Source: a virus (Duplodnaviria > Caudoviricetes). From it: a stretch of DNA of 39,665 bases. The notes under the pieces were generated by a model, which had not been told where the DNA came from, did not search any database, and saw only the letters and a program-made list of their open reading frames with translations. The translations under genes were made by a program, and so were the position numbers. Shown in pieces: positions 1,164 through 33,622 of this stretch (within the stretch, counting starts at the first letter, position 1; each line of letters starts with the position of its first letter). Location: positions 1-39,665 of the IMG/VR virus record IMGVR_UViG_3300038829_000258; one strand, 5' to 3'.

Positions 1164-1780
1164 GCGCGTTTAAACTCCACAACCCACACCCACGGATTCG
1201 CTGCTGCATGTCCCCGTCCGTTGATGTGATCCCACAGCGCGATGTAGTTCAGCTCCGGCCAGTGCGATGGCGTGATCCACTTCGGCGGCGGCTGCTGCTC
1301 GGCCGCCCAGCAGACGCCTTCCGCAGCGGCGTCCTTGCGGCTGATTGAATGTAGGCGCTCCACGCGCACGTCGGTCACATCGAGGACCAGGCGGCAGAGC
1401 GCTCGCGGCATGTGAATCCCGGGTGTCCACCGGCACGCTGCTTCGCCATCGGCGCGGTAGAGCACGCGCGCCGCCGCAGCTTGGCGCGCATCGCAGAACG
1501 TCTCGCGCACCCAAAGTCTGTCGCCGAGCTCGCCGTAGGGGCACCACGACAGCCACGATCCCAGCGGGGCGTGCGCGCCGTCCTCGGCGAATGGCCAGCC
1601 CCACGACATCGGATCGTTGGCCGCGCCGGAGAACTGATCACTGTGCAGGCGCAGGTTCACGAGCGGCCACTTGCCGGACCTGCCGAGCGGCCCGACAACC
1701 CGCCGCGTTTGCGTCTTCCGCCCGGCGAGAATCGCCTGCACCATCGGGCCGCTGAACAGGATCGGGCGCTCTTTCATCAT
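1160..1780 (-). CDS. ASCH/PUA-like conserved phage protein
   Basis: MKERPILFSGPMVQAILAGRKTQTRR, CPYG..GDRLWVRET, PGIHMPR and NPWVWVVEF motifs; start reassigned to the ATG overlapping the upstream stop. Confidence 0.8.
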   Translation of the reverse strand: MMKERPILFSGPMVQAILAGRKTQTRRVVGPLGRSGKWPLVNLRLHSDQFSGAANDPMSWGWPFAEDGAHAPLGSWLSWCPYGELGDRLWVRETFCDARQAAAARVLYRADGEAACRWTPGIHMPRALCRLVLDVTDVRVERLHSISRKDAAAEGVCWAAEQQPPPKWITPSHWPELNYIALWDHINGRGHAAANPWVWVVEFKRA

Positions 1781-2349
1781 CGGACCGCCTCCACATGCCG
1801 CTCCGCCGCCTTGATCGTGCGCGCGGGCGCGTCGCGCAGCCGATCGCGCCAGGTGTCCGAAAACACTGGCTCGAAGACCTGGCGCAGCTCGCGGTGCGTG
1901 CGCGGCCGGACCTGCTGGAGCAGATCCGGGTTCGTAACGAACACGCGGAACATCTCGGCGAACCACTCCGCATCGTTCGGGCAGTAGGACGTGATCGGCT
2001 TCTCGCCGGCGACCTGCCTGAGCCTGATGCCGAAGTCGCCGTAGTAGTTGCCGCGCCGCGTGCTGCGCTCGACGTCGACGTGGTGGCCCAGCTCGTGCTG
2101 CACGACGCCGTAGGGCGTGCGGTCCACGGTGTAGCCCGGGTAGGACCAGGCGCGGCCGGCTACGCCGATCGCGGCGCACTTCGGTACGCAGATGTGGATC
2201 GTGGCGGGGCGGTAGTAGGCGCACACGCCGAACGACCATGAAGCTGGGCTCGCCTCGTTGACCTCCGGCTGCCGGAGGGAATTGAGGGTGCAGAAGTCCA
2301 CCATCAGCTTCACGCCTGCCACCAGCAGGTTGGGCTTTGAAATGTTCAC
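1777..2349 (-). CDS. Putative zincin-type metallopeptidase
   Basis: HELGH (HExxH) plus downstream EWFAE; GTG start overlaps the ThiF stop (GTGA). Confidence 0.6.
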   Translation of the reverse strand: MNISKPNLLVAGVKLMVDFCTLNSLRQPEVNEASPASWSFGVCAYYRPATIHICVPKCAAIGVAGRAWSYPGYTVDRTPYGVVQHELGHHVDVERSTRRGNYYGDFGIRLRQVAGEKPITSYCPNDAEWFAEMFRVFVTNPDLLQQVRPRTHRELRQVFEPVFSDTWRDRLRDAPARTIKAAERHVEAVR

Positions 2350-3224
2350 AGGCATCCTTCCTTGCTTCTCGCGGTCTTAGGGCGCGGCGTGTAGCCGAAT
2401 CGTTCCCACGCCGCGAGGTCGCACCGAAGCGGCGTGATCCGGCCGGAGGCGGCGTTCACGAACACGCCGTGGTAGTCGGTCTGCTTGTGGCGGAAGAGCT
2501 GCCAGAGGAGCTGCAGGGCCTGGCTGGCCACGAGCTGGTTGATGAAAAGCTCTTGGCGCCCGAGGGCCTCGGCGAGGGAGCAGCTCGGCGCGCGGTCCGC
2601 GCGATCCAGGCGGTTCGCGGCGCGGCCGGACGTTTCGCCCGCGAAGAGGTCGGTGAACATCGGCAGCCGGCCCCACATGCGGCGATGCTTGCGGTTCATC
2701 GGAGGCACGCCGAGGATCACCTGGCCGTCCGCAGCGCGGTTGCCGAGGTCCATCCAGTAGAAGGGCGTGCCGTGGCGGCCGGAGAACATGCTGCCGCCGG
2801 ACGGGTCGAGCACGTCCGCGATCATGCTGCGCGCCGCGCGGGTATCGACGCACGAGATCAGGATCCCGGTGTTGGCGTCGCGCTTCACGCGCCCCCAGTG
2901 TTCCGGCTCGGCGTACCAATCCAGCCCGAAGAAGCTGTTGAGGCGGTGGACCAGCACGGTGGCCTTGTTGCGGCCGACGTCGGCCGGGGAGAAGAGCTGG
3001 CGGCCGACGTTCGCGGGCGAGACGGCGTCGCCGTCGAACACCGCGACGAAGAGGCCCGGGTGGCCCAGCGCGCGCAGCGCCAGGTGCAGGCGGGCGAGGC
3101 CGGTGAGCATCTGGCTGCCGTTGCCGCCGCAGCCGACCAGGCTGACGTGGACTCGCTCGTCGAGAAGCCGTGGATGGATGCAGTGGAGGAACGGGCCTTC
3201 TGGCTTGCGCTCGTCGTATCTCAT
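2346..3224 (-). CDS. PRTRC-system ThiF/E1-like adenylating enzyme
   Basis: VGCGGNGS nucleotide-binding loop, DGDxVSxANVGRQLF, ISCVDT, WMDLGN, PSCSLAEAL (putative catalytic Cys). Confidence 0.88.
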   Translation of the reverse strand: MRYDERKPEGPFLHCIHPRLLDERVHVSLVGCGGNGSQMLTGLARLHLALRALGHPGLFVAVFDGDAVSPANVGRQLFSPADVGRNKATVLVHRLNSFFGLDWYAEPEHWGRVKRDANTGILISCVDTRAARSMIADVLDPSGGSMFSGRHGTPFYWMDLGNRAADGQVILGVPPMNRKHRRMWGRLPMFTDLFAGETSGRAANRLDRADRAPSCSLAEALGRQELFINQLVASQALQLLWQLFRHKQTDYHGVFVNAASGRITPLRCDLAAWERFGYTPRPKTARSKEGCL

Positions 3225-3817
3225 GCGCTTTCCTCGATGAACATGCCGAGCAGGCACAGCCGGCGGGCGTACGTGAGCTCCTGGTCGACGTTGCCGATCA
3301 CCACCGAATACTTGACCTCGCCGGCGTCGTCCTCGTCGTCGGTGCCGGAGAAGCAGGCGCCGATCGCGCCGTGCGAGTGGATGTCGATCGCAAGGTGCAG
3401 GTGATCCTGCAGGCGTGGGCGCTCCAGATCCACGCTTCCAGGCGTTGCCGCCGTGGCGATCAGGGGCCAGTAGTCGAGCTTGCCAGTTCTTTCGTCGTAC
3501 ACGCCCCACGCGGCGCACTCGTTGGGGAAGGCGCGCGCCGCGTCGTGGAGGAAGCGGTGCTCGATCTCCTCGAGATCGGGCTGCGCGAAGGCGTACGTGA
3601 TCCTCTGCTCCACAGGCCCGTACGGCAGCGGGATCTCCGCCGCGGCGACGGGTACCCGCGCGTGGAGCCACGGCCGCAGCACTTCGAGCCAGAGGCCGTC
3701 GCGCGCGGCGAGGTAGCGGTGCCCCGGCTTCTCGGGCAGGGCCAGCGCGCCGAAGCTCGGCACCATCACCACGGGCACGTGGGCCTGCAGCACCTGGTCG
3801 CGTCGATCGAGCGTCAT
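3221..3817 (-). CDS. PRTRC-system protein A (JAB/JAMM metallo-isopeptidase)
   Basis: NECAAW (Glu) and IHSHG...FSGTDDEDD JAMM motif; N-terminal GHRYLAARDGLWLEV typical of PRTRC-A. Confidence 0.85.
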   Translation of the reverse strand: MTLDRRDQVLQAHVPVVMVPSFGALALPEKPGHRYLAARDGLWLEVLRPWLHARVPVAAAEIPLPYGPVEQRITYAFAQPDLEEIEHRFLHDAARAFPNECAAWGVYDERTGKLDYWPLIATAATPGSVDLERPRLQDHLHLAIDIHSHGAIGACFSGTDDEDDAGEVKYSVVIGNVDQELTYARRLCLLGMFIEESA

Positions 3818-4575
3818 TTCCCTTCCCTCTCGAACGAGCGGAGCAGCGACTCCAGGGTGTGCCTGCCGTGGGGCCGGAGCGAGGCCTCGGGGAAGGTCTT
3901 GTGCTTGCCGTCGAGCAGGTCGCGCCACAGCGCATGCACGCCGCCGCGGTACAGGGTGAGCGCCTTGTCGCTGGCGTTGGGGTGCGTGAAACGGGAATGG
4001 AAGAACGCCCGCTCGAACTGCGCCAGCGTGTCGGGCGACACGCGCTCAGGCCTGCGGACGTTGCCTTCGCAGATCGCGCCGTCCTCGTGGACGTTGAAGT
4101 GCGGCGCGCGGAAGAGCTGCGTGTCGGGCCGCGGCCGCGCGGCGCCCTTGACCGCGTACACGTGCCAGCGGCCCTCCACGAGCATGTGGACCAGGCCGGG
4201 CTGGTGCAGGCGCCCGGTGCGGTTGCCGATGTGGCGCCTGGCGTTCTTCTCGTCGATCGTCTCGAAGAACATCGTCGCGACCGCCGGCGCGCGCCACCAG
4301 GCGACGGTGCGCGGCCCGACGAACAGGATCTCGGGCGCGATCCACCCGTTGAAGGCGGCGCGGTCTGTCATGGCGCGCGCGAAGATCTCGCAGGCCTTGG
4401 CGGTCGCCGGCCGGCCGGGGCAGAGGCGGGGGCCGCCCTTCCGGTTGCGCTCGATGTCGTGCACGGTCGCGTACACGTTCTTGTCGCCCATGCCGGTGCG
4501 CGACGTGTAGAGCAGGATCGCCGAGTCGAGTTCGTACCTGGAGGTTCCGCCCGAGCGGACGGTGACGTCAGACAT
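3814..4575 (-). CDS. PRTRC-system protein B (prokaryotic E2 family D)
   Basis: AILLY..ATVH, VAWWRAP, PGLV, LFRAPHFNV..DGAICEGN (putative active Cys), FFHSRFTHPN. Confidence 0.85.
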   Translation of the reverse strand: MSDVTVRSGGTSRYELDSAILLYTSRTGMGDKNVYATVHDIERNRKGGPRLCPGRPATAKACEIFARAMTDRAAFNGWIAPEILFVGPRTVAWWRAPAVATMFFETIDEKNARRHIGNRTGRLHQPGLVHMLVEGRWHVYAVKGAARPRPDTQLFRAPHFNVHEDGAICEGNVRRPERVSPDTLAQFERAFFHSRFTHPNASDKALTLYRGGVHALWRDLLDGKHKTFPEASLRPHGRHTLESLLRSFEREGK

Positions 4576-5503
4576 TTTTCTGCTCTCCTTCAAGGATCAG
4601 GACCAGGGCATCGACGGCGCGCAGGACGGGCGCAGTCTTCGCGATCGACGTGAGGAAGTACTCCAGCACGGGCCCGATCGAGGCCGCCGAGCGCGCCGCG
4701 TTGGTCATGTGAAAGAGCGAGCGCTGCTCCTCCTGGCGCTGGTTGCGGTAGGCGTCGAGGAGCTGCATGTGCCCGCTTTTGTAGTCGTACGACTTCTCGC
4801 AGTGGACGATCAGCGGGAAGGTGGTGAGTTGCCCCGAGGTCGTCGGCAGCTTCAGCTCGCGGATCTTCGCCACCGCGTCCTCCACGGCCAGGATGGCGCG
4901 CGCGAGCCTGGCGGGGAACTGCGCGCCCGAACGCTTGGTGATGCGCTGGAGCGATTCGCGCGGCAGCATGGCCGGGCTCAGCATCCATGCCGCGTACTTG
5001 CCCAGGTACTCGACCATGAACTTCCGGCCGGCCGCCATGCGCAGCATCGTTTCGGGGAGCAGGATGGGCACCGACGCGTCCGCGGCATGCGCCAGCGCGC
5101 TGAGCGCGGATTGACCGAGGCCGGTCACCTGTTCCGCGGCGCGCAACCCTTTGCCCAGCGCGCACTGCGTCGGGGCGCCGGATTTCGCATTCAGGTCGAT
5201 GCGAAAGGACCCGTCCTCGTCCTCCTTGTATTCCACCCTGAAGCGGTAGACGCTCCGGCCGCCGTGCATGCGCGCCGCGAGCGTGGTGGCCTGCGGATCG
5301 CCCGGCTTGTACTGGAGTTCCTTCAGCCAGCCGTCCAGCACGCGCGCGATCACGGGAGCGGCAATGGTTTCGCTGCCGGCGTGGTGCCCGTACGTGCCGT
5401 CCAGCATGGCAAGGGCAACCTTCGCGGACACCGGCGACGCGTGATAGACCGTGTACGCGCGCGGGGCCCGGCCAAGCTCCGGCAGTTCGAGGACGGCGTT
5501 CAC
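4568..5503 (-). CDS. Divergent PRTRC protein F-like protein
   Basis: Position between protein C and protein B, ~310 aa, N-terminal LELPEL..P motif; similarity weak by eye. Confidence 0.45.
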   Translation of the reverse strand: MNAVLELPELGRAPRAYTVYHASPVSAKVALAMLDGTYGHHAGSETIAAPVIARVLDGWLKELQYKPGDPQATTLAARMHGGRSVYRFRVEYKEDEDGSFRIDLNAKSGAPTQCALGKGLRAAEQVTGLGQSALSALAHAADASVPILLPETMLRMAAGRKFMVEYLGKYAAWMLSPAMLPRESLQRITKRSGAQFPARLARAILAVEDAVAKIRELKLPTTSGQLTTFPLIVHCEKSYDYKSGHMQLLDAYRNQRQEEQRSLFHMTNAARSAASIGPVLEYFLTSIAKTAPVLRAVDALVLILEGEQKNV

Positions 5504-5751
5504 GGCAGAGGCGGCAGCGCTTCGGGTGCGGCGAAGATCAGGCCTTCGCCCGGCACCGTGATCGGGGCGTCCTCGGCTTCGTTTTCGTCCACGCCGTAGT
5601 CCGTCTGCATCGACTCGCGCACCAGCTCCGCGCAGGCCTGCGCGAACGGCGCCGCGGCGGCATGCTCCTCCGGCAGCACGGCGTTGCCGCGCGGGCGCTT
5701 CGCCTGGCCGGTGGCGAGCGCCTGGAGCTTGGCGCGTGCTTCTGTGCTCAC
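5500..5751 (-). CDS. Small hypothetical protein inside the PRTRC cassette
   Basis: GTG start overlaps the Ubl stop; its stop overlaps the F-like start; acidic and Pro-rich C-terminus. Confidence 0.55.
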   Translation of the reverse strand: MSTEARAKLQALATGQAKRPRGNAVLPEEHAAAAPFAQACAELVRESMQTDYGVDENEAEDAPITVPGEGLIFAAPEALPPLP

Positions 5752-6140
5752 GCTGCTCTCCGCGCGCGCCAGGCCTTCTGGCATTCCCTGCAGTGACGGT
5801 GCAGCCCGGCGGGGCCGGTTCCCTTGCTGAAGGCCGGCAACGGCTTGTCCACCTTGCAGCCCGCGCAGCGCTTCACGTCAACGCCGTCCACCAACTTCGG
5901 GAAGGCCTTGCGCGCGGCCGGGCGCGGCACGAAGTTGTATCCCTTAGTCCCGACAGCGCGCCGGAACGTGTACACGCGCTTGCCGTCCTTCAGCTCGGGG
6001 CCCTCGATCGCGGCGCTGACGATCTCGGGGTAGGTTGCCGAGTAGAGGTTGCGGACGTCGACGGCGTCGTGCTCGGGGCCCGGGTCTTCGAGCTCGATGT
6101 TGTTGTAGCGGAAAACGCGGGGCAGCTTGTCGTGGCTCAT
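5748..6140 (-). CDS. PRTRC protein C (ubiquitin-like) fused to a C-terminal CxxC...CxxC zinc finger
   Basis: RVFRYNNIELEDP...YSATYPEI..A.IEGP...YTFRRAVGTKG (Gly67) followed by KRCAGC..KPLPAF...HCRECQK. Confidence 0.82.
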   Translation of the reverse strand: MSHDKLPRVFRYNNIELEDPGPEHDAVDVRNLYSATYPEIVSAAIEGPELKDGKRVYTFRRAVGTKGYNFVPRPAARKAFPKLVDGVDVKRCAGCKVDKPLPAFSKGTGPAGLHRHCRECQKAWRARRAA

Positions 6141-7075
6141 GTGGACTCCGAGGTCTTCGGTGCGTCAAGGGTCGCGGAGTCCGGCTTGGCTTCCTCTGCG
6201 GCTCTGGCTGCCGCCTCGGCCTTCGTCTCCACCTGGATCTCGCGCTTCTCGGCGTCGATCGACACGACGGTGAAGAAGCCGGCGCTGCAGTTGAACGGAT
6301 CGCCCGGTTTCTTCTCGAAGATGGTGGCGCCGAGCGTCTTGCCCTTGGCCTTCACGGTCCACGGGCCCGGCGGCGCTGGCTTCGTGGGCTTGGGCTTGGA
6401 CTTGGGCGCTGCCGCTGCCGGTACCTTCGGGGCCTTCGCCGGCTTCGCAGCGCTGGTCTTCGCTGCCGCGGGCGCCTTCTCGCCCAGGCACGCGGCGCGC
6501 AGCTTGGCGAAGTTGGTGATCCGTTCGTAGCGCCGGCCGATCTTCTTGATCAGGCCCTCGCGGTCGAGGCTCGGGTTCGCCTTGAAGAGCGGCTTGGCCT
6601 GGTTGATCAGGTCCTCCAGCGCGGAGTTCTGGCCTGGCCTTGCGCGGGGAGCGGAGCGCTTGGGTGCGGCGCGCTTGGGTGTGGAGCGTTTAAACGATGC
6701 CGGCTTCTTAGCGGCCGGTTTCTTCTTCGCCGTCTTCCGCACGGCTTTTGCCTTGGCTACCGGGGCCGTAACACCCGGGCGGCCGTAGATCTCGCTCCGC
6801 ACGTGGAGCATGGCGGCGAGGTTGATCACGTCGACCATGTCGCCCTTGTCCACATGCTCGCGAAGCGAGGCGCGCAGGTCGGCGTCGATCTCGGGCTTGG
6901 GCTGGTGCCACCCGCCGCGGCCGTCCAGGCGTTTCTTCGCCAGCTTCTCGGTCATGGCCTTGCCGGCCAGGTCCACCAGCATGGCGTCGGCCTTCTCGTC
7001 GGCGAGCGCGCTGATGAAGGTGGAGAGTGACGCGGACGGTTGCGGCAGGGCGGCGTCGCTCGGTTTCTTTTTCAT
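6137..7075 (-). CDS. Lys/Ala/Pro-rich (histone H1-like) protein with N-terminal helical phage domain
   Basis: SD AGAAAGGA; N-terminal AMTEKLAKKR..GRGGW...EHVDKGDMVDVINLAAML; AKKKPAAKK/AKPAKAPK repeats. Confidence 0.65.
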   Translation of the reverse strand: MKKKPSDAALPQPSASLSTFISALADEKADAMLVDLAGKAMTEKLAKKRLDGRGGWHQPKPEIDADLRASLREHVDKGDMVDVINLAAMLHVRSEIYGRPGVTAPVAKAKAVRKTAKKKPAAKKPASFKRSTPKRAAPKRSAPRARPGQNSALEDLINQAKPLFKANPSLDREGLIKKIGRRYERITNFAKLRAACLGEKAPAAAKTSAAKPAKAPKVPAAAAPKSKPKPTKPAPPGPWTVKAKGKTLGATIFEKKPGDPFNCSAGFFTVVSIDAEKREIQVETKAEAAARAAEEAKPDSATLDAPKTSEST

Positions 7076-7347
7076 GGCGTTCCTTTCTGTGGAGCGGGTT
7101 TGCGGGTGAACCATCGGGCATGCACGTAGATGCTCGATGTGATGCCGGTGACGCCGCCGAGGAGGTAGGCGGCGCACTGGGTGACGCTGGCCTCGGGCAG
7201 GATCTTGTAGAGGACGAGGCTCGCGCCGCCGATGAACAGGCTGGTGATCGCGGCCATGACGTACTGGCCCTGATTCACGTTGCGGCTCTGGAAGCCGAGC
7301 GCGAAGACGGTGATGAAGGTGGAGGCGAAGAGCATCAGCTCGGTCAT
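7072..7347 (-). CDS. Small membrane protein (about 3 TM)
   Basis: Three hydrophobic segments; ATGA overlaps at both ends. Confidence 0.7.
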   Translation of the reverse strand: MTELMLFASTFITVFALGFQSRNVNQGQYVMAAITSLFIGGASLVLYKILPEASVTQCAAYLLGGVTGITSSIYVHARWFTRKPAPQKGTP

Positions 7348-23801: not shown

Positions 23802-25172
23802 ATGGCAATGAACGATGGCGAAAGGCAAGTGGCGCCCACGGTGGACGGCATCAGGTGCGATCACGTTGCACGGTACGAATGGGCCGCAAAGCTGGTCAAG
23901 GGGCGGGTGATCGACCTCGCCTGTGGAGTCGGCTACGGCACCGCGATCCTCGCGGCTGCAGGTTGCAAGGCGATCGGCTTCGACCGCGCGTCGGAGGCGA
24001 TCGGATATGCCCGCAAGCACTACGCGGGCACGGGCGCGGAGTTCACGTGCGCCGAGGCGATCCAGATCGACAAGGGCAAGGCCGACGCCGTCGTGTGCTT
24101 CGAGACCGTCGAGCACCTCGAGGAGCCGGCGCCGGTGCTGATGAACCTGCGCGCGATCGCGCCGCTGCTGCTTGTGAGCGTGCCGAACGAAGACGTGGTG
24201 CCGCACGACGGGAGGGCCAAGTTCCACTTCCGGCACTACACGAAGGGCCAGTTCCACGCGCTGCTGAGCACCACGGGCTGGGCCGTGAAGGAATGGTGGG
24301 GGCAGGCGGGCATCGAGTCAGACGTCGAGCTGGACGTCGCGGGGCGCACGCTGATCGCGGTGTGCGAGCGCATGGAGATTCCGCAGAAGTTGGCGCCGTC
24401 GCCGATCAACGTCGCGCCGCCGCAGCCGGATCGTCCCGTGCCGGAGCACGTCGCCATCCTGGCGCTGGGCCCGAGCCTCGAGAAGTATGTCGACGTGGTG
24501 AAGCGCGTGGGCGGCAAGCACGCCTACTGCGACGAAACGTGGGGCATCAACGCGGTGGGCGGCGTGGTCCTGTGCGACCGCATCTTCCACATGGACGACG
24601 TGCGGATCCAGGAGATCCGGGCGAAAGCCAGGCCTGACACCAACATCGCGCGCATGCTGGAGTGGATCAAGGTCCATCCGGGCCCGATCATCACCAGCCG
24701 CGCGCACCCGGACTATCCGGGGCTGGTGGAGTACCCGCTGCGGGACGTGATCCACACGTTCCAGCACGCGTACTTCAACTCCACGGTCGCGTATGCGGTC
24801 GCGTACGCGATCTGGCTGGGCGTGAAGAAGATCAGCCTGTACGGCCTGGACTTCACTTACGCGAACTCGCACGACGCGGAGAAGGGCCGCGCGTGCGTCG
24901 AGTTCTGGCTCGGCATTGCAGCGGAGCGGGGCATCAACTTCATGATCCCCAAGGATTCGACCCTGCTGGACGCGATGAACACGCAGGCCGAGCGGCTCTA
25001 CGGCTACGACACCGTCGATGTGCGGATCAGCGCTGTGAAAGGCGACACGGTGGTGGAGTTCACCGAGCGGGCGCAGCTGCCCACCGCCGACGAGATCGAG
25101 GACCGCTACGACCACGGCCGGCACACCAACGCGCTCGTGGAGCAAAGCCTGGCTGCGGCCGGCGAAGGATAG
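23802..25172 (+). CDS. Class I SAM methyltransferase fused to a DUF115/MptE/Maf-like transferase domain
   Basis: HVARYEWA, VIDLACGVGYG, CFETVEHL; then VAILALGPS, WGIN, YFNSTVAYAVAYAI.LG.K.I.LYGLDF. Confidence 0.7.
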   Translation: MAMNDGERQVAPTVDGIRCDHVARYEWAAKLVKGRVIDLACGVGYGTAILAAAGCKAIGFDRASEAIGYARKHYAGTGAEFTCAEAIQIDKGKADAVVCFETVEHLEEPAPVLMNLRAIAPLLLVSVPNEDVVPHDGRAKFHFRHYTKGQFHALLSTTGWAVKEWWGQAGIESDVELDVAGRTLIAVCERMEIPQKLAPSPINVAPPQPDRPVPEHVAILALGPSLEKYVDVVKRVGGKHAYCDETWGINAVGGVVLCDRIFHMDDVRIQEIRAKARPDTNIARMLEWIKVHPGPIITSRAHPDYPGLVEYPLRDVIHTFQHAYFNSTVAYAVAYAIWLGVKKISLYGLDFTYANSHDAEKGRACVEFWLGIAAERGINFMIPKDSTLLDAMNTQAERLYGYDTVDVRISAVKGDTVVEFTERAQLPTADEIEDRYDHGRHTNALVEQSLAAAGEG

Positions 25173-32468: not shown

Positions 32469-33622
32469 AGCTCGTCCCGCCGCTCGAAGTCACGGACGCG
32501 GTGCTGGTGTCCTCCACCGTGCCGGAGGACGACGCCGAGGTCTGGAGCGCCTCCAAGTACTACGCCACCGGCGACGAGGTCATGGTCACCACCGGCGTGC
32601 ACCGTGTCTATGAGGCGCTGACCGGCACGTCCGGGGTGGTGACCATGACCATCGCCTCGCCGTGCGTCATCACCTGGCCGGGCTCGGCGCCGGCGGCGAA
32701 TACGCCGTTCCAGATGTCCACCACCGGGGCGCTTGCCACCGGCCTGGTCGCCGGGACCACGTACTACGTCAAGGCGCCCAGCGGCGCCACGTCGAACGTT
32801 TCGGCTACAGCGGGCGGCGCGGACATCAACACCAGCGGCAGCCAGAGCGGCGTCCACACCGCGCGCTACGGGGCGAACTTCAACAAGTCGCCCCCGAGCT
32901 ACTCCGACCCGGAAGCCGTCTCGCCAGACTGGCTGGAAACCGGCGCGACCAACCGCTGGCGGCTCTTCGACGAAGTCGTGGGCCAGCAGTGCACCGACAC
33001 CGACGAGATCGAGGTCGTGCTCGCGCCGACCGAACGCTGCACCACCGCGTCGCTCTTCAACCTGGACGCGGCTGAAGTCACGGTGGTGGTCGTGTCCGAT
33101 TCCGAAGGCGAGGTTTACAACGAAACCTTCAGCCTGACGGACGACGGCGGCATCACCGATTGGTACTCGTGGTTCTTCTCGCCGATCGAGCGCCTCTCCA
33201 CCTTGGTGGTCAACGACCTGCCGGCGCACTCGGACACGGAGGTCACCGTCACCATCACCGGCGCCGGGACGATCGGCTGCGGCGAGGTCGTGCTCGGCTT
33301 CGCGCGCGAGATCGGCGACACCATGTGGGACACGCAGCTCGGCATCAACGACTACTCCTACAAGGCGCAGGACGACTTCGGCAACTGGCGCATCACGCAG
33401 CGCGCGTTCTCCCGCGCCGCGCAGTTCCCGGTGTGGCTCGATGGCTCGCGCACCGATGCCGTGATCCGGCTGCTGGAGCGCTATCGCTCCACGCCGGTGG
33501 TGTGGATCGGCATCGAGGGCACCACCAGCACCTACGTCTACGGCTTCTATCAGTCGTTCGTCCTGGCGATGAAGAACTTTCCGCAGTCGCTCTACAACCT
33601 TGAGATCGAGGGCCTGACATGA
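32465..33622 (+). CDS. Tail tip/distal tail protein
   Basis: Directly after the tape measure gene; W...GATNRWRLFD, GI.DYS.K..DDFG, YGFY..F motifs. Confidence 0.65.
   Translation: MKLVPPLEVTDAVLVSSTVPEDDAEVWSASKYYATGDEVMVTTGVHRVYEALTGTSGVVTMTIASPCVITWPGSAPAANTPFQMSTTGALATGLVAGTTYYVKAPSGATSNVSATAGGADINTSGSQSGVHTARYGANFNKSPPSYSDPEAVSPDWLETGATNRWRLFDEVVGQQCTDTDEIEVVLAPTERCTTASLFNLDAAEVTVVVVSDSEGEVYNETFSLTDDGGITDWYSWFFSPIERLSTLVVNDLPAHSDTEVTVTITGAGTIGCGEVVLGFAREIGDTMWDTQLGINDYSYKAQDDFGNWRITQRAFSRAAQFPVWLDGSRTDAVIRLLERYRSTPVVWIGIEGTTSTYVYGFYQSFVLAMKNFPQSLYNLEIEGLT

What the first reader, a model, noticed from the sequence alone, without database searches (positions are those of the whole stretch)
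5748..6140. Ubl is a precursor fusion: GTKG followed by a zinc finger
Seen: the Ubl domain ends ...RAVGTKG at Gly67 (5942-5940), where PRTRC-C proteins normally stop. Here it continues 63 aa into a basic CxxC-x(n)-CxxC finger (KRCAGC...HCREC). Inference: the JAB protease may cut after Gly67, releasing both an activatable Ubl and a Zn-finger effector, as in eukaryotic ubiquitin-ribosomal protein fusions. Caveats seen: the codon after Gly is TAC (5939-5937), one base from a stop. A GTG at 5930 preceded by AAGGGA could start the finger independently. A lost stop codon or a sequencing error is therefore possible.
Basis: partly seen in the sequence, partly recalled or inferred. Interest (0 to 1): 0.85.

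Follow-up and report, generated by a model that had tools for sequence, protein, structure and literature searches.

The report
Phage ubiquitin-like fusion with swappable passenger
A prophage gene joins a ubiquitin-like protein to a small zinc finger, and relatives carry dozens of other small proteins at the same joint, so the neighbouring protease likely cuts the two apart and the finger is probably a replaceable passenger rather than a fixed partner.

Summary
The fusion is real. A relative at 77% nucleotide identity keeps Gly-Tyr and the finger in frame, the finger is under purifying selection (dN/dS 0.12), and six proteins carry it. The premise that these Ubls normally stop at Gly is wrong: 37 of 41 phage loci run on for 61 or more residues. 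The passengers form about 74 unrelated classes. The finger sits on six separate Ubl lineages (AU p 3e-76) and also occurs as a stand-alone gene (L044). A relative lacks it and fuses the Ubl to the next gene. The adjacent JAB has an intact active site, and a model threads Ubl residues 60-70 through it (0.82, best control 0.00). The cut is not shown. Reading: a PRTRC/type-6d Ubl precursor whose cut site works as a slot for swappable phage genes; a dedicated effector is not supported. The scan found this theme before on other DNA. I found no paper on it.

The parts
5940..6140 (-). Ubiquitin-like domain (PRTRC protein C / Prok_Ub), residues 1-67, ending RRAVGTKG at Gly67
   Evidence: TIGR03738 91.7 bits; PF14454 85 bits; Gly64, Lys66 and Gly67 invariant in 38 aligned homologs
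5877..5939 (-). 21-residue linker starting at Tyr68; predicted cut between Gly67 and Tyr68
   Evidence: pLDDT under 50 for residues 63-74; 13 of 21 residues shared with L046, no indel; dN/dS 0.59
5748..5876 (-). C4 zinc finger (C92, C95, C117, C120) with basic C-terminal helix; its stop overlaps the next gene's GTG
   Evidence: PHROG endonuclease VII and HNH models hit residues 88-128, best E 9e-6; Atlas structure matches TM 0.80-0.91 over 45-50 residues; model pLDDT 90.6; dN/dS 0.12
5500..5751 (-). Unnamed 83-aa 'PLP-tail' gene; in many relatives it is the Ubl's fused passenger
   Evidence: Own HMM: fused in 13, separate in 35, not detected in 13 of 61 loci; fused in P0006 and in a contig of run X3
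4568..5503 (-). 311-aa protein in the position of PRTRC protein F (family not confirmed)
   Evidence: No NCBIfam hit itself; its 43%-identical homolog in L046 hits TIGR03742 weakly, E 0.0075, below cut-off
3814..4575 (-). E2-like protein (PRTRC protein B, Prok-E2_D)
   Evidence: TIGR03737 216.9 bits; PF14460
3221..3817 (-). JAB/JAMM peptidase (PRTRC protein A) with E100 and H147-x-H149-x7-S157-x2-D160
   Evidence: TIGR03735 204.2 bits; these residues invariant in 27 aligned homologs
2346..3224 (-). E1-like ThiF-family enzyme of the PRTRC cassette
   Evidence: TIGR03736 287.2 bits; translation

Best explanation
The gene encodes a ubiquitin-like domain joined in frame to a zinc finger, and the operon's JAB peptidase likely cuts it after Gly67, which would free a Ubl that the adjacent E1 and E2-like enzymes could activate and would release the finger, probably a replaceable passenger. 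Shown: the fusion, its conservation, the intact JAB/E1/E2 genes, and that the codon after the Gly is a joint at which many unrelated small genes are found. Inferred: the cut; that this trimming frees the stop codon from selection, so any small gene landing between the Ubl and the PLP-tail gene can be read through; and that recombination at the conserved 3' end of the Ubl moves passengers between lineages. The finger is a selected phage accessory protein in its own right, predicted to bind nucleic acid, and the fusion is one way of expressing it. Released with N-terminal Tyr, it would likely be a ClpS substrate and short-lived. Odds: cut after Gly67 about 0.8; passenger not a dedicated partner about 0.85.
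For: Fusion kept in six proteins and in L046 with the same Gly-Tyr junction. Extensions are the norm: 37 of 41 viral loci have 61 or more residues; 14 of 19 genome loci have 40 or more. Gly67 is invariant in 38 homologs, fused or not. Three-residue tails (L009, L015, L061) also need trimming before adenylation, as BilA does (PMC10557695, passages). JAMM motif intact in 41 of 41 JAB hits. JAB-Ubl model: score 0.82, best of 3 controls 0.00; the mark was reached by 116 of 157 solved and 2 of 215 mismatched pairs (counts hold only roughly here); runs agree in at least 95% of contacts; partner pLDDT at least 85; Lys66 touches His147 and Asp160. First residue after Gly: A/G/S in 48 of 74 passenger classes against 21% background, never P, D or E. 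Swapping: finger-bearing Ubls need 6 changes on an 88-row tree; one clade rejected, p-AU 3e-76; a contig of run X3 joins 5941 to 5724 with 34 other letters; stand-alone finger genes L044 and P0130.
Against: No cleavage, conjugation or expression was measured. Tyr is the first residue in only 1 of 74 passenger classes, so this joint is atypical and may be cut poorly. The first-residue bias could be inherited from an ancestral Ala codon, not selected. The complex pass may reflect likeness to the solved BilC-BilA type of complex, although neither profile found a solved relative by sequence. A second in-frame GTG (Val84, 5891) is shared with L046, so internal initiation is not excluded. The tree has only 63 columns and its bootstrap had not settled. 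Cluster representatives over-count fusions.
Confidence: 0.68

Rival explanations
1. Dedicated pair: the finger needs the Ubl fusion for folding, 1:1 dosage or timed release, as ribosomal proteins fused to ubiquitin do.
For: The Gly-Tyr junction and linker are kept in frame between the window and L046 at 77% nucleotide identity. The same finger family reached the slot in six Ubl lineages.
Against: Stand-alone finger genes exist (L044, P0130). The closest Ubl (P0006, 97%) has another passenger. Other passenger families are also scattered over the tree.
Confidence: 0.13
2. The finger is made mostly from an internal start, so the read-through is incidental to it.
For: AAGGGA lies 9 nt before the GTG at 5930. 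The GTG for Val84 is shared with L046. L047 keeps an ATG four codons after Gly. 12 of 39 loci have a start-type codon within 8 codons of the Gly.
Against: The 5930 GTG is CGT in L046 and Arg in P0139. The purine-rich word before Val84 lies 12 nt away. Met is no commoner in the first 10 passenger residues (15 of 74) than in residues 21-30 (16 of 74).
Confidence: 0.08
3. The protein is not cut and works whole, with the finger as a targeting or E3-like module and the Ubl as a binding domain.
For: Tyr after Gly is rare (1 of 74). The finger model has weak likeness to RING, FYVE and ClpX fingers, Z 2-3.
Against: Internal Gly67 is invariant whatever follows it. The JAB is intact and the model seats residues 60-70 in its active site. 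The linker is predicted to be flexible.
Confidence: 0.06
4. The finger is the relic of a homing endonuclease gene that inserted at the Ubl end and lost its nuclease domain.
For: Closest families and models are the fingers of phage HNH and endonuclease VII proteins. The finger in L047 has foreign GC3, 0.58 against 0.91 for its Ubl.
Against: dN/dS 0.12. The PLP-tail gene follows directly in the window, L046 and L047, leaving no room for a nuclease remnant. Stand-alone copies are also short.
Confidence: 0.04
5. Sequencing error or a recently lost stop codon.
For: TAC is one base from a stop.
Against: Contigs of two runs agree. L046 has TAC and P0139 has Tyr at the same place.
Confidence: 0.01

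Closest known systems
PRTRC cassette (TIGR03735-03738, TIGR03742) = operon type 6d of Iyer, Burroughs and Aravind 2006 (PMC1779556)
   Same: Ubl, JAB with N-terminal extra domain, E1-like, E2-like and a further protein in one operon; four models pass their cut-offs.
   Different: The paper describes the Ubl as a small stand-alone protein with a C-terminal glycine (section 14, read whole). Here and in most relatives the glycine is internal. An unnamed PLP-tail gene also belongs to most cassettes examined.
Type I Bub (BubAB cut by the JAB domain of BubCD; PMC11601596) and Bil (BilA trimmed by BilC; PMC10557695)
   Same: Ubl made as a pre-protein and cut right after a conserved Gly by the operon's JAB; BilC also cuts a BilA-GFP fusion.
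   Different: Different families. Their extensions are a fixed E2 (Bub) or at most nine residues (BilA). Bil is an anti-phage system, whereas this cassette lies in the leftward early region of a prophage and its passenger varies.
Eukaryotic ubiquitin fusions: ubiquitin-eL40/eS31 (review PMC11354881, passages) and the varied fusions of Bigelowiella and Guillardia (PMC6332867, abstract)
   Same: Linear Ubl-passenger precursor; in the algae the partners vary, and the review lists a zinc finger protein among them.
   Different: The ribosomal fusions are fixed and essential. The algal situation is the better analogy. No homology of the passenger is implied.
C4 finger of phage HNH / endonuclease VII proteins; Stc1-like finger (PF12898); finger of Hpy99I (3fc3)
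   Same: CxxC...CxxC pattern and predicted fold (Z 5.0, rmsd 3.6, 46 aligned).
   Different: No nuclease domain. The PF12898 hit is below cut-off. DNA binding is untested.

Membership tests
PRTRC / type 6d cassette | Ubl of family PRTRC_C / Prok_Ub above cut-off | tested here: met
   TIGR03738 91.7 vs 45.95; PF14454 85 vs 25
PRTRC / type 6d cassette | JAB with N-terminal domain, ThiF-like E1 and Prok-E2_D in the same operon | tested here: met
   TIGR03735, TIGR03736, TIGR03737; PF09436, PF14464, PF14460
PRTRC / type 6d cassette | Alpha-helical protein (PRTRC F) | tested here: inconclusive
   No hit for 4568-5503; its homolog in L046 hits TIGR03742 at E 0.0075, below cut-off
PRTRC / type 6d cassette | ParB-related protein and proteins D and E of the full plasmid cassette (names recalled) | tested here: inconclusive
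   No such hit among the 14 nearby ORFs scanned; the rest of the window was not scanned against NCBIfam
PRTRC / type 6d cassette | Ubl ends at the conserved Gly, as described in PMC1779556 | tested here: not met
   63 further residues. Most members fail this too, so the description is too narrow; membership rests on the models above.
JAB-processed Ubl precursor (Bil/Bub type) | Cognate JAB with intact JAMM motif | tested here: met
   E100, H147, H149, S157, D160 invariant; motif intact in 41 of 41 JAB hits
JAB-processed Ubl precursor (Bil/Bub type) | Cleavage right after the conserved Gly | not testable with these tools
   Only a predicted complex
JAB-processed Ubl precursor (Bil/Bub type) | Conjugation of the mature Ubl through E1 and E2 | not testable with these tools
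   Genes present; activity not measured
Dedicated ubiquitin-fusion pair (eL40/eS31 type) | One fixed partner inherited together with the Ubl | tested here: not met
   About 74 passenger classes; one clade of finger-bearing Ubls rejected
Homing endonuclease (HNH / endonuclease VII) | Nuclease domain after the finger | tested here: not met
   The frame stops 10 residues after C120 and the PHROG hits cover only the finger

The most novel reading that the evidence does not exclude
Phages run a natural ubiquitin-fusion expression slot. Any small gene that recombines in behind the invariant Gly is made 1:1 with the Ubl and released by JAB with a non-Met N-terminus, and that first residue sets its half-life. 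This lineage uses Tyr to make the finger a short-lived nucleic-acid-binding regulator timed by JAB activity.
Probability: 0.2. Interest if true: 0.78.

Novelty: new variant of a known kind. Interest (0 to 1): 0.52.

Why it matters
I found no experimental study of the type-6d/PRTRC system in the searches made, and its 2006 description has a stand-alone Ubl. The data change that picture: the Ubl is usually a precursor, and its cut site takes up unrelated phage genes. This gives a simple substrate for a first biochemical test of the pathway and a bacterial parallel to variable ubiquitin fusions in algae. It also points to a JAB that probably tolerates many passengers. The finger itself is a minor part of the story.

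Tried and rejected
No RNA holder listed. Only contigs could be laid, so read-level support at 5937-5939 was not seen. A word search with the finger alone found no candidate. The finger alignment found 1 viral locus among 121 pattern matches and 3 metagenome loci among 565; one of these, L045, is the window's own sequence and was not counted as support. A second finger-like match at 32881-33021 (E 1.7e-4) lies in another frame of a long ORF and has no cysteine pattern in the sequence shown; I treat it as chance. Foldseek gave no match at E 0.001 or better for the whole model. PADLOC gave only weak E1 hits. The Atlas gave no family for 4568-5503. No solved relative by sequence for the Ubl or JAB profile. 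Avoidance of N-degron residues (L, F, Y, W) after the Gly was not significant: 6 of 74, p 0.08. Look-ups of earlier notes by sequence and by place returned nothing. No supplementary files were read, and bioRxiv supplements are closed; operon tables there could already list such fusions.

Full report
Observation. The ORF at 6140-5748 on the minus strand gives 130 residues. Residues 4-67 match PRTRC protein C (91.7 bits) and Prok_Ub. An open frame is weak evidence here, since 46% of random 63-codon frames in the window have no stop.

Setting. The window is a provirus record, 86% complete, with integrase, excisionase, primase, terminase, portal, head and tape measure genes. The gene lies in the leftward early region. 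It is followed by an 83-aa gene, a 311-aa gene, an E2-like protein, a JAB and an E1-like protein, and at each junction from the upstream gene to the gene after E1 the start overlaps the previous stop. This is the PRTRC cassette, type 6d of PMC1779556 (section 14 read whole, plus passages).

The fusion is real. Contigs of two runs of one sample match the junction with no difference; this sample may be the window's source. Independent support comes from homologs. Six proteins carry Ubl plus this finger (P0001-P0005, P0139). Locus L046 is 77% identical over the passenger and keeps GGC-TAC, with no indel in 63 codons. Between the two, dN/dS is 0.12 for the finger, 0.59 for the linker and 0.32 for 39 codons of the Ubl (one pair only). 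The GTG at 5930 is CGT in L046, so that start is not conserved. A later GTG (Val84) is shared, so an internal start is not excluded.

The premise is wrong. Of 41 viral loci found with the Ubl alone, 37 continue for 61 or more residues, 2 for three residues and 2 stop at Gly. Of 19 genome loci, 14 continue for 40 or more, 1 runs off its contig after 33, 1 has three residues, 1 stops and 2 lack the motif. Of the best 150 of 773 representatives at 50% identity, 111 have 40 or more extra residues, 16 have 16-39, 2 have 1-15, 19 have none and 2 lack the motif; clustering favours fusions. The 218 extensions of 30 or more residues fall into 92 BLAST clusters, or 74 classes after merging clusters that match the PLP-tail HMM and dropping two poly-Ubl proteins. 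Several match unrelated phage accessory families.

The finger is a mobile passenger. The nearest Ubl, P0006, is 97% identical, yet it is fused to the protein that the window encodes separately at 5500-5751. A contig of run X3 joins 5941 to 5724 with 34 other letters in between. An HMM of this PLP-tail finds it fused in 13, separate in 35 and not at all in 13 of 61 loci; the seeds came from the same families, so the fused count is partly by construction. On a tree of 88 Ubl domains, chosen as the closer part of the 260 proteins held, the six finger-bearing rows need 6 changes, as shuffled labels do, and starred branches force at least 5 (63 columns, bootstrap not settled). One clade is rejected, p-AU 3e-76. 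The other five finger-bearing Ubls are only 67-68% identical to the window's. The finger also stands alone, in L044 and as P0130. In L044 it lies next to a homolog of window gene 7072-7347, with no Ubl within 3 kb. In L047 its GC3 is 0.58 against 0.91 for the Ubl, which suggests recent arrival.

What the finger is. It has four cysteines and a basic helix, and models at pLDDT 90.6. The closest families are the fingers of phage endonuclease VII and HNH proteins, and the top solved match is weak (Hpy99I, Z 5.0, rmsd 3.6, 46 aligned). It has no nuclease domain. Nucleic-acid binding is an inference from charge and kin.

The cut. Gly67 is invariant in 38 aligned homologs. The JAMM motif is intact in all 41 loci with a JAB hit; of the 41 viral loci only L015 has none, and its contig ends there. 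Residues 63-74 are predicted to be flexible. A model of JAB, zinc and Ubl residues 1-75 scored 0.82 against a best control of 0.00; this mark was reached by 116 of 157 solved and 2 of 215 mismatched pairs, the runs agree in at least 95% of contacts and partner pLDDT is at least 85. The interface includes E100, H147, H149, S157 and D160 with Ubl residues 60-70. This supports binding and does not show it; it may reflect likeness to solved JAB-Ubl complexes, though no sequence relative is solved. BubC cuts BubAB right after Gly229 (PMC11601596, abstract and sections 3, 5, 6), and BilC cuts BilA-GFP after Gly97 (PMC10557695, passages). The first residue after the Gly is A, G or S in 48 of 74 classes (background 21%) and never P (p 0.006) or D/E (p 7e-5). 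That fits a protease site; Pro is the one residue that blocks full release of ubiquitin by Ubp1 (PMC12258705, passages). Shared ancestry of the first codon could also produce it. Tyr occurs in 1 of 74 classes, which counts against easy cleavage here. If cut, the finger would start with Tyr, which ClpS recognises in E. coli (PMC12258705, figure legend passage).

Mechanism. Shown: in-frame fusion, selection on the finger, intact enzyme genes, many passengers at one joint, scattered lineages. Inferred: JAB cuts after Gly67; the mature Ubl is activated and probably conjugated; trimming relaxes the need for a stop, so genes that arrive between Ubl and PLP-tail are read through; recombination at the conserved Ubl end spreads them. 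The targets of the Ubl and the role of the finger remain open.

Known and new. The cassette is known. JAB-processed Ubl pre-proteins are known from Bil and Bub. Variable ubiquitin fusions are known in two algae (PMC6332867, abstract; PMC11354881, passages). My searches found no paper on passengers of the type-6d Ubl (listings only; the library lacks most subscription journals; no supplements read). Earlier notes of this scan report the same theme on other genomes; they are unchecked and are not evidence. Verdict: new variant of a known kind, interest 0.52.

Noticed in passing
window 5500-5751 (-): Unnamed ~62-83-aa gene ending in a Pro-Leu-Pro-like motif; found in 48 of 61 cassettes, fused to the Ubl or right behind its passenger; no Pfam, NCBIfam or PHROG hit. 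Probably an unrecognised core part of the cassette.
   Followed up: partly
window 1777-2355 (-): Gene directly after the E1, overlapping its stop, with an HELGH motif and a below-cut-off Peptidase_M90 hit (E 8e-5); possibly a second peptidase beside the cassette.
   Followed up: no
proteins P0241, P0224, P0235: P0241 is a 291-aa head-to-tail repeat of Prok_Ub-like units, each ending GTKG (5 matched stretches), a bacterial polyubiquitin-like precursor; P0224 and P0235 have two matched stretches.
   Followed up: no
protein P0243: Ubl fused to a 313-residue passenger, about the size of the F-position protein; identity not tested.
   Followed up: no
L008, L009, L015, L011 just after the Ubl: One passenger family occurs fused with its own ATG (L011), separate after a stop at Gly (L008) and separate after a three-residue tail (L009, L015): all states of the joint in close relatives.
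   Followed up: partly
window 7072-7347 (-): Small membrane protein with a holin-class PHROG hit (E 2e-11) in the early region; its homolog lies next to the stand-alone finger gene in L044.
   Followed up: partly
window 6137-7072 (-): Lys/Ala/Pro-rich protein directly upstream of the Ubl, with an N-terminal domain of unknown function (phrog_8298); its stop overlaps the Ubl start.
   Followed up: no
window 23802-25172 (+): Methyltransferase-like gene (weak PHROG hits) between the head and head-tail adaptor genes.
   Followed up: no
window 32881-33021 (+): Weak match to the finger region (E 1.7e-4) in another frame of a long ORF; judged chance.
   Followed up: yes
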